Positions 8,237 through 19,752 are shown, numbered from the stretch's first letter. The stretch: DNA of 38,433 bases from Bacteroidales bacterium (GCA_051646645.1 JBOFDD010000141.1:1-38433), one strand, 5' to 3'. The notes: generated from the sequence alone by a model not told the origin. Translations and numbers: made by a program.

Positions 8237-11200
8237 TTAGAAAGAAACGTTTACTCCGAATGCAACCGATTTAGATCCGAGAGCACCAAGTCCGCGTCCT
8301 GATTTTGATTCCGGATCGAAATCCTTCATTTTTTTATCTGCACGTATTGTAAACAGATTTTCAGCAGTCAGGAACATTTTCAATCCCGTAAGCGGAGTTT
8401 TGCTTAACAGACTTTTCGGGAACTGATATCCAAGAGATATTGTCTTGAAACGGAAGTAATCTGCATCGAAAAGCTGGAAGTCACTGAAGTTCTGATTGTA
8501 GTTATCGTAACTGTGTCCGCCATAAATTCTCGGATATCCGGCATTTGGATTCGGATTATTCGGACTCCAGCGATCCATATGGAACTGACGAGGATTTGAA
8601 TTCAGGAAGAAAGCCCAAACCTGTTCCGATTCAAACGCAGCCTGTGTTCCCGTTACGCCCTGACCAAACATCGATAATTCAAAGTTTTTGTACATCACAC
8701 TCAGGTTGATGCCATAAGTGAAATCAGGTACATCTTTACCTATGATTGTACGGTCTTCAGCTGTTATGTCACTTTTGTAAGGCACATCCGGACGTTGTGG
8801 TACATATTTTATGTCACCCGCATTCGGAACCCGGCCTAACTTGTAGTATTCGCCTCTGTCAATTTCATCCTGAGTGTAAAGTCCGTCCGTTTTATATCCA
8901 TAGAACGAACCGATAGATTCACCTTCTCTTAATATATAGCGGATTTTGTCTCCTCCGTTTACAACATCGTTGTTTGCACTTCCCAGATCCATGATCTTAT
9001 TTTTGTTCCATGAGAAGTTTGCACCTACAGTGTAGTTTACTTGTCCGATTGTGTTGCGGTGTGTAACAGCGAACTCAAAACCATTATTTTTTACTTTACC
9101 GATATTCTGAGCAGGTCTGTATTTCTCGTCAGAACTGATACCTGTTTCAAGCGGAACATTATAAGCAAGCAGGATATCGCTTGTGTTTTTGATGTAATAG
9201 TCAGCTACGAAATTCAGTTTTCCATTGAAGATATCGAAGTCAACACCAAAGTCGGTGATTGCAACTTTCTCCCATCCCAGATTTTTGTTCGCCGGTTTAG
9301 TTTCGATAATACCGATTACAGGAACATCTTCGAAGTTGAAGTTTTGATTGTTTCTATAATTCTGGAAGTAGTCATAGTTACCCACGTTGTTAATGTTACC
9401 CAGTTTACCCCATGAAGCACGCACTTTCAGATTGTCGATCCATGTTGCATTTTTAAGGAAATCTTCCTGATTAATTCTCCATGCAGTAGAGAAAGAAGGG
9501 AATACACCCCAGCGATTGTCTCGTGGAATCTTGAAGAACCATCCGTACGGATGTTACCCTCAAACAAGTAGCGATCCATGAAAGAATAGTTGATACGAGC
9601 AAAGTACGATCCGATTTTATATTCAGACATCCCCCCTTGATTAGTCATCTCTGCTGTCGAACCTGCATTCATATCAGGTAATCCGTCTGTAGGGAAATTC
9701 TTACGACTACTTTTCTGAATTTCGCTTTTGTAATGTTCATAAGATGTACCGATTAAAGCCGATACGTCATTATGTGAGTTTTTCCAGTCATATTTTGCCG
9801 TAGCCATGTAAAGCATACGGTTTGAACTTTGCCAGTTCATATCCATTTTATTCGTATATACTCCTGTTCCCGGAATCGGTTGTCCTGAATTGAAGTCAAT
9901 GATATCGTCAAATAATCCGGTATATGATTTCCCTTTATATTCATATCCTTTGTAGATCCCCTGTCCGCTGATCGTAAGTCCTTTTACCGGTTTAAAATCA
10001 AAACCAAGATCAATCATTGTATTGTCTGTTTTCGAATTTGACCAGTCGTTTTTGTCAAGCGCACGAAGCGGATTGTTTTTCATAAACTCCTGAGTAGCCT
10101 GAGCTCCACCGGCAATAGACCCGAACATTCCGTTTGAATGCTGAGCAACCATAATAGAAGGAACAGTAAGAAAGTTCATCAAAGCCGGAGCACCACGATC
10201 TCTGTCGCTTGCATCACGGATATACTTAACACCTGCTTTCAAAGTAATCCAGTCAGTCAGGTCAGCAGCAGTATTGATGTTGAAGTTATATCTTTCACTA
10301 TTCTGTCCGGGCATGAACTTTTCGTCAAACAAGTATCCCAGACCCGAAAAGAAACGGATTTTTTCACTACCACCGCTAAAGTTAAGCGAGTGTTGAGTAG
10401 TAACCGTATTTTTCTTTAGGACAAGATCAGACCAGTCTGTATTTGGATACAGGTCAGGATTAGATCCGTTTTTGAACATTTCGATTTCCTCTTCGCTATA
10501 AGCCTGATTCCAGCCTTTTGATGCATCGCGGTTGTAGAATGCTTCATTTAATAGTTCTGCATAATCCCATGAGTTAACAAGATCAGGAAGATAAGTCGGG
10601 TTTTTGATACCTACATAGCCGTTATATGAAATATTCAGCTTGTCTTTTTTACCTGTTTTGGTTGTAACCAACACCACCCCGTAAGCAGCACGCGAACCGT
10701 AGATCGCACTTGATGCAGCATCTTTCAGGAATGAGATCGATTCAATACTGTTAGGGTCAAGACTTGAGAAGAACCCCGCATCAGCTATTGCTCCGTCAAT
10801 AACATAAAGAGGCTCAGAAGTACCTAAGTTTCCTCTACCACGAAAGTTGATTGTCGGATTTTCGCCCGGACGTGAGATAATCGTTACACCCGGAACAGTA
10901 CCCTGAACGGCAGAAAGCACGTTTGTCTGAACACGATCTTTGATATCGTCAGATGAAATTGCTGCTACAGACCCCGAAAGGTTAACCTTTTTCTGAGTAC
11001 CGTACCCCACAACCACAACTTCGTCCAGCGCCTTAGAGTCGTCCTTCAGCGTGATGCGCATCGGGCTGTTACTGTTCGCTGCAACTAACATCGGCTGATA
11101 TCCGATATATGTCACTTTGATCATGCTGCCTTCCGGAGCATTCAGCGTAAAGTTACCGTCAAAATCCGTAATCGTTCCGTCAGTTGTACCATCTACAACT

Positions 11201-11601
11201 ACGTTTGCACCGATAACCGCTTCGCCGGTATTGTCTAAAATTGTCCCGCTGATTTTTTTAGCTTGTCCCGCTTTCTTTGAGCTGATAGAAATGTTATTTC
11301 CGTTTACTGCAAAAGTCAGATTTTTAGCTGACAGAATGCTTGACAATACATCTTTGACAGTGATATTCTCTTTGTTGAGAGAGATATCGTTCTGAGAAGG
11401 AAGAACAATATCACGATACGAGAAGCGATAATTTGTTTGTTTCTCAATCAGTGATAATACATTTTTAAGATTGGTTTTTTCAACATTCAAATTCACTTTT
11501 TGTGTTTGAGCAAATACCGAAACCGGATTTGTCAATAAAAAAAGGAATAAGAGTTTAGACAATACAATGCTAATTGTATTGAAACTTGATTTCAACTTCA
11601 T
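8237..11601 (-). pseudogene. SusC/RagA-family TonB-dependent transducer with N-terminal STN domain, split by a 1-nt frameshift near 9518-9522 (ORFs 9427-11601 and 8237-9424)
   Basis: Signal peptide, then an STN-like segment (NLKNVLSLIEKQTNYRFSY), a CarboxypepD_reg-like segment (ISGTILDNTGEAVIGANVVVDGTTDG), the plug (DEVVVVGYGTQKKVNLSGSV) and a barrel ending ..AFGVNVSF. After ..DGSSRFHE the frame is lost. A +1 shift restores DNRWGVFPSFSTAWRINQEDFLKNATWIDNLKVRASWGKLGN, which continues into the downstream ORF. Confidence 0.85.
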
Positions 11602-17527: not shown

Positions 17528-17566
17528 AGAAAGGGGAAATCAGACTCATTCTGTTTTCCCCTTTCT
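17528..17566 (+). terminator. Rho-independent terminator-like hairpin after the UDG-fold gene
   Basis: AGAAAGGGGAAA (17528-17539) pairs perfectly with TTTCCCCTTTCT (17555-17566), with a 15-nt loop. Followed by GTTATATTTTA. Confidence 0.6.
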
Positions 17567-17818
17567 GTTATATTTTACCCAATGTGTTTTACCGAAGCAT
17601 TAAGTGAATCCTGAAAAGTAAGCACGTGATTCATGGATTGTATGTTTGGTTTCTGTCCATAATAGTGCGATTTAATGTGCTCAAATGTGCCTGAACATAC
17701 ACTATTTATTCAATTCCTGAACTCTGGTTCTGAAACTTTCCATACGTAGCAATCTGCCGCAGGATACGTATAAATAGTTCTGATTATAGGTAAGATTAAT
17801 CTGATCTGCAAGGGGGAT

Positions 17819-17980
17819 TAACCTATTTCACACCTATGATTAATTTCTACCCTGTACAGCTCCTTGTAAGGTGCTGTACATATCCTTTTGGGGTGCTGTA
17901 CATATCCTTTTTGGGTGCTGTACAGATCCTTAATTATTCATACGTTCGAAAAGAATTAATCATAGGTGTGAAATAAGTTA
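17819..17980. repeat. 27-bp inverted repeat pair (17819-17845 / 17954-17980, 26/27 matches) enclosing a 108-bp segment
   Basis: The left arm is TAACCTATTTCACACCTATGATTAATT. The reverse complement of the right arm is TAACTTATTTCACACCTATGATTAATT. Confidence 0.9.
17849..17936 (+). repeat. Four head-to-tail 22-bp direct repeats (iteron-like) with a TGTACA core
   Basis: Units are ACCCTGTACAGCTCCTTGTAAG, GTGCTGTACATATCCTTTTGGG, GTGCTGTACATATCCTTTTTGG and GTGCTGTACAGATCCTTAATTA. TGTACA occurs at 17853, 17875, 17897 and 17919, exactly 22 bp apart. Confidence 0.9.
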
Positions 17981-18131
17981 TTCTCCGGTATGACTGAATT
18001 TATTCAAACGTATATTGCGTCAGCTATATACGTATAAGCTCTGATGGTGTTGCAGATACTTTTCCAACATTATCATCTGCAACGCTATCTGCAGCACCTC
18101 CAGGGACTATCCATGAAGGGTTTATACGTAT

Positions 18132-18151
18132 GTTGCAGATGCATCTGCAAC
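18132..18151. repeat. Perfect 20-bp palindrome GTTGCAGATGCATCTGCAAC
   Basis: Self-complementary. Directly preceded by the palindrome ATACGTAT (18124-18131). The same half-site recurs at 18049-18057 (forward) and 18075-18083 (reverse). Confidence 0.9.
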
Positions 18152-18169
18152 AAATAAAACTTTATTTCA

Positions 18170-18210
18170 TAAGAAAACAGCGGACCTCTCCGGGATTGAA
18201 GAGTCCGCTG
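18170..18210 (-). terminator. Rho-independent terminator-like hairpin after the OM beta-barrel gene pair
   Basis: CAGCGGAC (18178-18185) pairs with GTCCGCTG (18203-18210). On the minus strand the stem is followed by TTTTCTTA. Lies 39 nt past the stop at 18249. Confidence 0.6.
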
Positions 18211-19583: not shown

Positions 19584-19727
19584 CAAAATTAAGCGAAAAT
19601 CCCCATAATCAGGTTTGTAACGCCAGCTTAAAGCTTGTAATGTATATTAGTTAATATATTGATTTGCAAAGCTATAGCGCAAAGTGTGAAAAAGAGTTTC
19701 TTGTAAATAGATAAAACAGCTTTGTAA
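19584..19727 (-). promoter_or_regulatory. Two promoter-like modules upstream of the OM barrel genes, each a -7 box plus two phased TTGTAA repeats
   Basis: CAAAATTA (19584-19591) and CAAAGCTA (19667-19674) are exact reverse complements of TAnnTTTG. TTGTAA occurs at 19615 and 19635 (20 bp apart) and at 19701 and 19722 (21 bp apart). The nearer repeat starts 24 or 27 bp beyond each box. Confidence 0.35.
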
Positions 19728-19752
19728 GGCAATATTATAGCTATAAAATAGA

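What the first reader, a model, noticed from the sequence alone, without database searches (positions are those of the whole stretch)
17819..17980. 27-bp inverted-repeat clamp around four phased 22-bp direct repeats in a gene-free gap
TAACCTATTTCACACCTATGATTAATT (17819-17845) recurs in inverted orientation at 17954-17980 with 26/27 matches. The 108 bp between the arms is almost entirely four head-to-tail 22-bp units (17849-17936). Units 2-4 read GTGCTGTACA[T/G]ATCCTT.. and unit 1 is degenerate. The palindromic core TGTACA therefore falls at 17853, 17875, 17897 and 17919, exactly 22 bp (two helical turns) apart. Nearby there is no ORF of 60 aa or more and no Rep, transposase or integrase gene. 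I see no flanking target-site duplication and no TAnnTTTG promoter box inside. Three explanations seem possible. It could be an iteron-type array that binds a sequence-specific DNA-binding protein on one face of the helix. It could be a recombinase-flipped segment. It could be an sRNA whose long stem presents four repeated 22-nt motifs, acting as a protein sponge. The unit1/unit2 junction CTTGTAAGGTGCTG resembles the ATTGTAGGTGATA repeats upstream of susC-2 and the TTGTAA repeats upstream of the OM barrel genes. The two TPR-TM-HTH regulators in this window are therefore candidate binders.
Basis: partly seen in the sequence, partly recalled or inferred. Interest (0 to 1): 0.8.

Follow-up and report, generated by a model that had tools for sequence, protein, structure and literature searches.

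The report
Orphaned 22-bp phased palindromic site array
The inverted-repeat "clamp" and its four 22-bp repeats are real, but they are the middle of a 308-bp array of 14 strictly phased palindromic sites, most likely docking sites for an unknown DNA-binding protein. In related bacteria the array fills the control region of a gene that this strain has deleted.

Summary
The arms match 30/33, and TGTACA falls at 17853, 17875, 17897 and 17919. All these features are unique in the window.

The element is part of something larger. From 17735 to 18042 there are 14 head-to-tail 22-bp units. All nine ACGT or GTAC tetramers between 17744 and 18030 share one phase.

The four inner units fit a perfect 22-bp palindrome, TAAGGAGCTGTACAGCTCCTTA. 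The outer units derive from ATTAATCATACGTATGATTAAT. The "arms" are two degenerate outer units in opposite orientation.

In related uncultured Bacteroidales the same array fills the space between divergent promoters of an HD-domain gene and a sulfatase gene. This strain lost the HD gene through a 929-bp deletion. Its sulfatase side has been replaced.

The clamp is strain-specific: arms match 21/33 in L016, and the left arm core is absent in L022. The phasing and the four TGTACA units are conserved. One relative lacks exactly 8 × 22 bp.

No contig shows the inverted orientation. There is no Rfam match, internal promoter box, terminator, target-site duplication or second copy.

Best reading: an orphaned multi-operator, iteron-like protein-binding array whose binder is unknown. 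Inversion switch, sRNA and MITE are not supported.

The parts
17735..18042 (.). Whole 22-bp phased array of 14 head-to-tail units
   Evidence: The register print shows a core motif at the same position in nearly every 22-bp line. All 9 ACGT/GTAC tetramers between 17744 and 18030 are in phase 0 mod 22. The lag-22 match fraction is 0.53 (z 9.8), and no other lag is comparable.
17845..17932 (.). Four inner T-type units with a CTGTACAG core.
   Evidence: TRF period 22, 3.6 copies. The consensus of 14 such units from 4 lineages is TAAGGAGCTGTACAGCTCCTTA, a perfect 22-bp palindrome. GTAC is invariant and CCTT/AAGG is strongly conserved.
17813..17845 (.). Left arm: an outer-type unit in inverted orientation with a hypervariable 10-bp core (CACACCTATG)
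   Evidence: IR I1. Five different cores occur at this position among lineages with 94-99% identical flanks.
17954..17986 (.). Right arm: the second of two direct outer-type units (AATTAATCATAGGTGTGAAATAAG)
   Evidence: IR I1. TRF reports 17932-17973 as a 22-bp tandem repeat of 1.9 copies. In L016 this unit reads AATTATTCATACGTCCGGAAATAG, which is 15/22 identical.
17933..17954 (.). Right-1 unit ATTATTCATACGTTCGAAAAGA. It is the symmetry partner of the left arm about the array centre at 17888.5.
   Evidence: It is 22/22 identical in L016. It pairs with the left arm in the L016 fold.
17735..17800 (.). Left outer units with cores ATACGTAG (17742), ATACGTAT (17764) and ATAGGTAA (17786)
   Evidence: Direct repeat D8 has spacing 22. 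The units are 21-22/22 identical to L016. The cores are in phase with the TGTACA units.
17999..18042 (.). Right outer units with cores AAACGTAT (18006) and ATACGTAT (18028). They form an inverted copy of 17742-17776.
   Evidence: IR I2: 35 nt, 74%. The cores are in phase. This stretch is not homologous to L016 beyond 17983.
18043..18152 (.). Cluster of TTGCAGAT/ATCTGCAA motifs, including the perfect 22-bp palindrome TGTTGCAGATGCATCTGCAACA at 18131-18152. It may be a further module of the same kind of array.
   Evidence: IRs I5, I12, I17, I20 and I24 and direct repeats D3 and D11.
17575..17660 (-). Remnant of a 340-aa HD-domain-like gene. The C-terminal end is 17575-17641 and the first codons are 17642-17660. 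The deletion junction lies at the 6-bp repeat GATTGT (17636-17641).
   Evidence: L001, L003, L004, L005, L016 and others carry the intact gene between these points. 929 bp are missing here, and the microhomology is shown. The HD assignment is weak in Pfam (E 0.0087), but sources name the homologues HD domain proteins.
17682..17689 (-). Possible -7 promoter box of the lost gene (CACATTTG on the minus strand, one mismatch to TAnnTTTG). The array begins about 45 bp upstream of it.
   Evidence: Read from the sequence and conserved in L016 and L023. Inference only.
17528..17566 (+). Terminator-like hairpin of the 222-aa gene
   Evidence: IR I7: 17 nt, 94%, 5-nt loop, followed by a T-rich run.
18180..18209 (-). 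Terminator-like hairpin of the 216-aa OMP gene (GCGGACCTCTCC...GAGTCCGC, then a T run on the minus strand)
   Evidence: Read from the sequence.

Best explanation
The element is the core of a composite array of protein-binding sites that works like tandem operators or iterons.

Fourteen 22-bp units lie head to tail. The four central units are copies of the palindrome TAAGGAGCTGTACAGCTCCTTA. The flanking units derive from the palindrome ATTAATCATACGTATGATTAAT. Left-hand units keep its right half and right-hand units keep its left half.

In the ancestral arrangement the array fills the space between the divergent promoters of an HD-domain hydrolase gene and a sulfatase gene. The inferred mechanism is that dimers of a sequence-specific DNA-binding protein occupy successive palindromes two helical turns apart. 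They would touch each other and form a cooperative nucleoprotein complex that sets the activity of the flanking promoter(s).

In this strain both flanking genes are gone, so the array is an orphan. The HD gene was lost to a 929-bp deletion and the sulfatase side was replaced by a rearrangement.

The 27-33-bp clamp is not a separate device. It is two degenerate units in opposite orientation. In this lineage alone they became nearly identical, probably through a templated conversion within the quasi-palindrome.

Shown: anatomy, phasing, conservation, genomic position and the mode of evolution. Inferred: protein binding, cooperativity and a regulatory role. The binding protein is unknown.
For: 1. 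9 of 9 ACGT/GTAC cores are in one phase, and lag-22 z is 5-10 in the left flank, core and right flank separately.

2. The units are palindromes with a conserved centre (GTAC at 2.0 bits), conserved outer tetranucleotides (CCTT/AAGG) and variable positions between them. That is the pattern expected of a dimer's two half-sites.

3. The array occupies the same place in three lineages whose HD proteins are 79-97% identical to the L001 protein used as the search query. Each lineage has four TGTACA-type units and no internal indels, although the unit sequences differ.

4. In L016 the array (8542-8827) lies between the HD gene start and the sulfatase -7 box TATTTTTG (8845).

5. Core-bearing units are 19-22/22 identical between the window and L016, whereas the core-less arm units are 15/22.

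6. The array evolves in whole units. L019 lacks exactly 176 bp, which is 8 x 22, between shared anchors.

7. 22-bp phased arrays with the same kinds of core occur in IMG/VR contigs: 27 stretches with TGTACA x3. One array of ATACGTAT-type units lies between an AraC-family gene and an esterase gene. This shows the architecture recurs in control regions.
Against: No binding protein is identified. No HTH gene is consistently linked to the array in L016, L019 or L022.

The AraC lead was not reproduced near 60-70% homologues.

The array is dispensable. It is deleted in L019, interrupted by a 1.45-kb insert in L017, and orphaned in the window.

Twelve to fourteen sites is many for a simple operator.

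A 22-bp period is 2.1 turns, so over 14 units the sites drift by more than a full turn and cannot all lie on one face.

Only about five lineages are available and they are not independent.
Confidence: 0.5

Rival explanations
1. It is a functionless palindromic minisatellite. A 22-bp palindromic unit amplified by slippage or unequal exchange in spacer DNA, and it now drifts, rearranges and acts as a fragile site. The cores look conserved only because the units are young copies of one another.
For: The array gains and loses whole units. It is dispensable in L019, L017 and the window. Rearrangement breakpoints cluster at it: the HD deletion about 100 bp away, replacement of the right flank at 17983, and the L017 insertion inside it. 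Assemblies often break there.
Against: Two distinct unit types keep their order, their number (four T units) and their exact register in lineages with only 79% protein identity. Variation is concentrated at particular unit positions and in the core-less units rather than spread evenly.
Confidence: 0.22
2. It is a structured RNA. Either an sRNA or a long 5' leader of the HD gene folds into a long stem that presents repeated hairpins and acts as a protein sponge or cis-regulator.
For: Folding is very stable: -80.4 kcal/mol, z -9.7 on the + strand and -69.9, z -9.3 on the - strand. L016 and L022 also fold well. In the window the two arms changed in concert.
Against: Any tandem array of palindromes folds this way on both strands. 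The pairing register differs by lineage: units 1:2 and 3:4 in the window, 1:4 and 2:3 in L016, and 1:3 in L022. The outer stem is 21/33 in L016 and its left half is missing in L022. There is no Rfam match; only miRNA hairpin models appear, far below threshold. There is no TAnnTTTG promoter box upstream and no terminator after it. The array lies upstream of the likely HD promoter.
Confidence: 0.1
3. It is a non-autonomous mobile element (a MITE), or the internal part of one, with the 27-33-bp arms as terminal inverted repeats.
For: The window has arms of 30/33 around a short non-coding core. L019 lacks the core. A separate ORF-free element bounded by terminal inverted repeats (TIRs) has inserted into the same array in L017.
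Against: There is no target-site duplication. There is no second copy in the window or in 165 kb of related loci. An architecture pattern found nothing real in JGI metagenomes or IMG/VR. The element sits at the same site in three lineages. The L019 gap is an in-register loss of 8 units that does not coincide with the arms. The phasing continues through and beyond the arms.
Confidence: 0.07
4. It is a phase-variable invertible segment flipped by a site-specific recombinase acting on the arms, like a Bacteroides invertible promoter.
For: An IR pair flanks 108 bp and originally lay upstream of a gene. CATACGTTCGA inside the segment loosely resembles the Mpi IR consensus ARACGTWCGT (8/10). That consensus is recalled from my own knowledge and was not tested.
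Against: 0 of 14 independent contigs that reach the arms show the flipped orientation. There is no TAnnTTTG inside on either strand. No recombinase is among the Pfam-scanned window proteins. The arms are not conserved as an IR in L016 or L022. Logan contigs break 18-55 bp inside the array, not at the arm boundary.
Confidence: 0.03

Closest known systems
Iteron arrays of plasmid and phage replication or control regions, for example the seven 22-bp iterons of R6K gamma ori and the incC repeats of F (own knowledge)
   Same: Both have head-to-tail sites with a 22-bp, two-turn period, several copies, and a non-coding location. Both evolve by gain and loss of units. Comparable 22-bp arrays with TGTACA cores are common in IMG/VR contigs.
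   Different: Here there is no Rep gene, no plasmid or phage context, and no AT-rich unwinding element. The units here are full palindromes, which suggests dimers, whereas classical iterons are asymmetric and bind monomers. Two unit types are combined here.
Tandem palindromic operators bound cooperatively, for example paired 18-bp ARG boxes of ArgR at 21 bp centre to centre, or lambda OR1-OR3 (own knowledge)
   Same: Both have palindromic sites abutting each other about two turns apart, placed at or between divergent promoters.
   Different: This array has 12-14 sites instead of 2-3. The sequences are unrelated and no cognate repressor gene is known.
Centromere-like repeat arrays of type II and Ib partition systems, for example the four 20-bp tandem repeats of pSK41 parC that are wrapped by ParR (own knowledge)
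   Same: Both are contiguous 20-22-bp repeats. A period slightly off the helical repeat would wind bound dimers into a superhelical filament.
   Different: No parM, parA or parR genes are present. The location is chromosomal, among polysaccharide-utilisation genes.
Array in IMG/VR contig L062 (13804-13957) between an AraC-family gene and a BD-FAE esterase gene
   Same: It has a 22-bp period and seven units. Its cores, ATACGTATAAAT and ATCATACGTATGAT, match the outer units here (GGATACGTATAAATAG; ATCATACGT/ACGTATGAT).
   Different: It has no TGTACA units. The ATTAAT-to-ACGT spacing differs by 3 bp per half-site. The AraC association was not found at more distant homologues.
Bacteroides invertible promoters
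   Same: Both have inverted repeats flanking a segment of 100-200 bp upstream of a gene.
   Different: This element has no internal promoter box and no evidence of flipping. Its IR is not conserved and no recombinase is present.

Membership tests
Plasmid/phage iteron origin | Tandem direct repeats of 17-22 bp with a period of about 22 bp | tested here: met
   Period 22 over 14 units.
Plasmid/phage iteron origin | Adjacent Rep initiator gene and a mobile-replicon context | tested here: not met
   Pfam scans of the window proteins show PUL genes, TonB-like, ECF sigma/anti-sigma and OMP genes. There is no Rep, Par, integrase or transposase. Relatives have HD hydrolase and sulfatase genes.
Invertible promoter (phase switch) | Conserved inverted repeats bounding the segment | tested here: not met
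   The arms match 30/33 in the window but 21/33 in L016, and the left arm core is absent in L022.
Invertible promoter (phase switch) | Both orientations present in sequence data | tested here: not met
   All full-length contigs (window, L002, L016, L022) and all partial contigs (L001, L003, L005, L007, L023, L024, L012-L015) have the same orientation. These are assemblies only; raw reads were not examined.
Invertible promoter (phase switch) | Promoter inside the segment (TAnnTTTG in Bacteroidota) | tested here: not met
   There is no match in 17846-17953 on either strand.
MITE | Target-site duplication at the ends of terminal inverted repeats | tested here: not met
   The flanks are TGCAAG on the left and GGTATG on the right, with no duplication.
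MITE | Multiple dispersed copies in the genome | tested here: inconclusive
   It is a single copy in the 38-kb window and in 165 kb of related loci. Nothing real was found in JGI metagenomes or IMG/VR. The complete genome and GTDB were not scanned with a DNA pattern.
Known structured RNA (Rfam) | Score at or above a family's gathering threshold | tested here: not met
   There were 0 matches in the window and in L016, L017 and L022. At E up to 1 only miRNA hairpin models appeared, at 23-26 bits against thresholds of 70-110.
sRNA gene | Conserved secondary structure with compensatory changes in one register | tested here: not met
   The minimum-free-energy (MFE) topologies differ among the window, L016 and L022. 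Only 3 full-length homologues exist, so no formal covariation test was possible.
Multi-operator (tandem palindromic repressor/activator sites) | Palindromic sites positioned at the regulated promoter(s) | tested here: met
   The 22-bp palindromic consensus is shown. In L016 the array spans the interval between the HD gene start region and the sulfatase -7 box.
Multi-operator (tandem palindromic repressor/activator sites) | A cognate DNA-binding protein that binds the sites | not testable with these tools
   No candidate is consistently linked. The TPR proteins with a LuxR-like C-terminus are neighbours only in the rearranged window lineage.
REP/BIME-type extragenic palindromes | Hundreds of copies per genome and an associated RAYT transposase | not tested
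   Only 38 kb of this genome is available, and it holds no other copy.

The most novel reading that the evidence does not exclude
The array, the TTGCAGAT cluster beside it and the 1.45-kb ORF-free insert in L017 may belong to one undescribed class of non-coding iteron islands in Bacteroidales. The L017 insert consists of six different clusters of 8-11-bp motifs at spacings of 10-12 or 21-22 bp. Such islands would be modular, partly mobile platforms on which one or several unknown DNA-binding proteins assemble filaments. They might act as titration or decoy sites, or as centromere-like sites, rather than as ordinary operators.
Probability: 0.1. Interest if true: 0.75.

Novelty: new variant of a known kind. 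Interest (0 to 1): 0.45.

Why it matters
Almost nothing is known about transcription-factor binding architecture in uncultured Bacteroidales. A 300-bp array of 14 strictly phased sites built from two palindromes is an unusually explicit DNA signal. It could be used directly as bait to fish out its binding protein.

The case also shows how a striking inverted-repeat clamp can arise as a by-product of a tandem palindromic array. That is a caution for scans that look for invertible switches, MITEs or sRNAs.

In this particular strain the array is probably a relic, because both genes it once flanked are gone.

Tried and rejected
Rfam gave nothing usable at gathering threshold or at E up to 1. ARAGORN found no tRNA or tmRNA.

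BLAST of the gap against plasmids, and of the L017 insert against phages and plasmids, found no match.

The architecture pattern TGTACAN3CCTTN4GGN3TGTACAN3CCTT gave one chance hit in JGI metagenomes and none in IMG/VR.

GTDB therefore could not be scanned with a DNA pattern.

More distant HD-gene homologues (54-58% identity) lie in unrelated contexts and have no array.

The Bacteroidetes LexA-like motifs GGA-N5-TCC and CTAA-N5-TTAG (PMC8565304) do not fit the units. Literature searches for TGTACA or 22-bp repeats in Bacteroides or Bacteroidales found nothing relevant.

The AraC lead from L062 failed. Twelve loci with AraC homologues have no phased ACGT arrays.

The 46-aa ORF across the array was rejected as coding. 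The signal is a 22-bp DNA period, which is not a multiple of 3, and the start codon is absent in L022.

Fur-box, ARG-box and CodY-box resemblances of the ATTAAT-containing units were considered by eye and judged too weak to claim.

Full report
**1. The observation**

- The inverted repeat extends to 33 nt (17813-17845 and 17954-17986) at 91% complementarity, with 108 nt between the arms.
- Its 24-nt core occurs nowhere else in the 38-kb window, and none is expected by chance.
- Tandem Repeats Finder (TRF) reports a 22-bp repeat of 3.6 copies at 17852-17931.
- The 17-mer GTGCTGTACATATCCTT occurs three times, against 0.12 expected.
- TGTACA starts at 17853, 17875, 17897 and 17919.
- There is no ORF of 60 aa or more in the gap and no TAnnTTTG box inside the segment.

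**2. The element is part of a larger array**

I printed the region in 22-bp lines anchored on the TGTACA cores. A core motif then sits at the same position in nearly every line from 17735 to 18042, which is 14 units.

The cores read, in order:
- ATACGTAG, ATACGTAT, ATAGGTAA
- one core-less unit
- ACACCTAT (the left arm)
- four CTGTACA(G/T) units
- ATACGTTC
- ATAGGTGT (the right arm)
- one degenerate unit
- AAACGTAT, ATACGTAT

All nine ACGT or GTAC tetramers between 17744 and 18030 are in the same phase modulo 22. The lag-22 match fraction is significant separately in the left flank (0.49, z 5.1), the core (0.79, z 9.9) and the right flank (0.56, z 6.1). No other lag stands out.

Fourteen TGTACA-type units from four lineages give the consensus TAAGGAGCTGTACAGCTCCTTA. 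This is a perfect 22-bp palindrome with invariant GTAC, well-conserved CCTT/AAGG and variable positions between them.

The outer units idealise to a second 22-bp palindrome, ATTAATCATACGTATGATTAAT. Units left of the centre keep its right half and units right of the centre keep its left half.

A tandem array of palindromes is self-complementary about every unit centre and every unit junction. Long hairpins and very negative folding energies on both strands follow automatically.

**3. Genomic context**

The window comes from an uncultured Bacteroidales lineage. The flanking 222-aa protein retrieves only two GTDB species, both Bacteroidales MAGs. The surrounding genes are ordinary chromosomal genes: SusC/SusD pairs, glycoside hydrolases, an ECF sigma/anti-sigma pair, TonB-like proteins and OMPs. 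No mobile-element genes are present.

The gap lies between convergent genes, each with its own terminator hairpin. It is gene-free only secondarily.

- Related contigs (L001, L003-L005, L016, L017, L019, L022, L023) carry a 340-aa HD-domain-like gene on the minus strand. It sits exactly between window positions 17641 and 17635.
- The window retains only the gene's last 67 bp and its first codons.
- 929 bp are missing between two copies of GATTGT.
- The array therefore begins about 75 bp upstream of that gene's start codon. It also lies about 45 bp upstream of a conserved near-consensus -7 box (CACATTTG). The promoter assignment is inference.

On the other side, all relatives have a divergently transcribed sulfatase gene whose TATTTTTG box follows the array. 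In the window, homology to L016 ends at 17983. Beyond that point lie two further in-phase ACGT units, a cluster of TTGCAGAT/ATCTGCAA palindromes and the 3' end of an OMP gene.

The array is thus an orphaned divergent control region.

**4. Comparative anatomy**

The window, L016 and L022 align through the array without internal indels. Their HD proteins are 97% and 79% identical to the reference. All three have four TGTACA-type units, although the unit sequences differ.

L019 lacks the TGTACA units and the right-hand units. Between shared anchors it is shorter than L016 by exactly 176 bp, which is 8 x 22. The array therefore changes by whole units in register.

In L017 the TGTACA units are interrupted by a 1.45-kb ORF-free insert.

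Per-unit identity between the window and L016 is 19-22/22 for most units. It is 15/22 for both arm units. Five different 10-bp cores occur at the left arm among lineages whose flanks are 94-99% identical.

The two arms match 30/33 in the window but only 21/33 in L016. The left arm core is absent in L022. The clamp is therefore specific to this lineage. The clustered differences that make the left arm match the right arm look like a templated conversion within a quasi-palindrome. This is inference.

**5. Tests of the alternative readings**

*Inversion switch.* Four full-length contigs and ten partial contigs from independent samples all show the same orientation next to the arms. No promoter box lies inside and no recombinase gene was found. 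The IR is not conserved.

Logan contigs do tend to stop inside the array, at 17828-17879 from the left and at 17935 from the right. No k-mer of 23 or more is repeated there. The breaks lie 18-55 bp inside the array rather than at the arm boundary. This points to strain or unit heterogeneity rather than flipping.

*sRNA.* No Rfam family matches. There is no promoter or terminator signal. The predicted pairing register differs by lineage: units 1:2 and 3:4 in the window, 1:4 and 2:3 in L016, and 1:3 in L022.

*MITE.* There is no target-site duplication and no second copy in the window or in 165 kb of related loci. Nothing real turned up in JGI metagenomes or IMG/VR. The phasing runs through the arms into the flanks.

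**6. Best explanation**

The most economical reading is a composite array of binding sites for a dimeric, sequence-specific DNA-binding protein. There may be two proteins, one for each palindrome type. The sites are two helical turns apart, so neighbouring dimers could interact and form a cooperative complex over the region between two divergent promoters.

A period of 22 bp is 2.1 turns. Bound dimers would therefore wind slowly around the helix rather than lie on one face. This resembles partition-type filaments (own knowledge).

Supporting observations:
- Conservation is position-specific within units.
- Unit order, number and register are retained across lineages.
- The array sits at promoters.

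The architecture also recurs elsewhere. 27 IMG/VR stretches carry three or more TGTACA cores at 22-bp spacing, many of them obvious non-coding arrays. One IMG/VR contig (L062) has seven 22-bp units with ATACGTATAAAT and ATCATACGTATGAT cores between an AraC-family gene and an esterase gene.

The binder is unknown. AraC homologues at 60-70% identity have no such arrays nearby. The window's two TPR proteins with a LuxR-like C-terminus are neighbours only in the rearranged lineage. I put this explanation at about 0.5.

The main rival, at about 0.2, is a functionless and fragile palindromic minisatellite. In its favour, the array has been deleted, interrupted or orphaned in three of five lineages.

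**7. Comparison with known systems and novelty**

The array works like iterons or tandem operators. It fails membership of replication-origin iterons because there is no Rep gene and no replicon context. It also fails the tests for invertible promoters, MITEs and known RNAs (see the membership table).

I rate it a new variant of a known kind, of moderate interest. In this strain it is probably a relic.

The L017 insert and the TTGCAGAT cluster hint at a broader class of modular repeat islands, which I could not pursue further.

Noticed in passing
L017 8232-9679: About 1.45 kb of ORF-free DNA is inserted inside the TGTACA array of a sister species. Its ends are GAGGATGTATCAAAAG and, reverse-complemented, GAGGGTGTGTCAAAAA (13/16 matching). 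It holds six successive clusters, each of a different 8-11-bp motif in both orientations, at spacings of 10-12 or 21-22 bp. The motifs are GCTACTTGC, CTTAAGAG, GGTTGCAATT, ATCAGCAC, ATACGTATTTC and ATGGCAA. Two terminator-like hairpins lie at its right end. Searches of phages, plasmids, IMG/VR patterns and Rfam found no match.
   Followed up: partly
window 17575-17660: The 340-aa HD-domain-like gene found in all relatives is reduced here to its two ends. The cause is a 929-bp deletion between GATTGT repeats, plus a 1-bp deletion near the start.
   Followed up: yes
window 18043-18152: A cluster of five or six TTGCAGAT/ATCTGCAA motifs includes the perfect 22-bp palindrome TGTTGCAGATGCATCTGCAACA (18131-18152). 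The same ATCTGC motif accompanies the ATACGTAT cores at 17750-17771. It may be a further module of the array.
   Followed up: partly
window 17983 (right boundary of homology to L016): In relatives a sulfatase gene follows the array. Here the right side is replaced by the 3' end of an OMP operon. The new sequence again carries in-phase ACGT units, which suggests recombination between two similar arrays.
   Followed up: partly
L062 13804-13957 (IMGVR_UViG_3300008273_000034): A seven-unit 22-bp array with (T/A)TAATACGTAT(T/A)AAT cores lies between an AraC-family regulator gene and a BD-FAE esterase gene in a Prevotella-like contig. Its cores match the outer units of the window array.
   Followed up: partly
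window 19615-19728: Four (C/T)TTGTAA motifs at spacings of 20, 66 and 21 bp lie upstream of the 187-aa OMP gene. They share only an 8-mer with the array and were not analysed further.
   Followed up: no
window 8237-11601: A SusC-like receptor appears split into a 724-aa ORF (Plug and N-terminal domains) and a following 395-aa ORF with no Pfam hit. It is possibly a frameshifted gene.
   Followed up: no
L042, L049, L054 (IMG/VR): Very long arrays of 11-24 or more units of GGATT(T/C)NNTGTACACCTGA(A/G)AT at a 22-bp period occur in large viral contigs of 136-177 kb.
   Followed up: no
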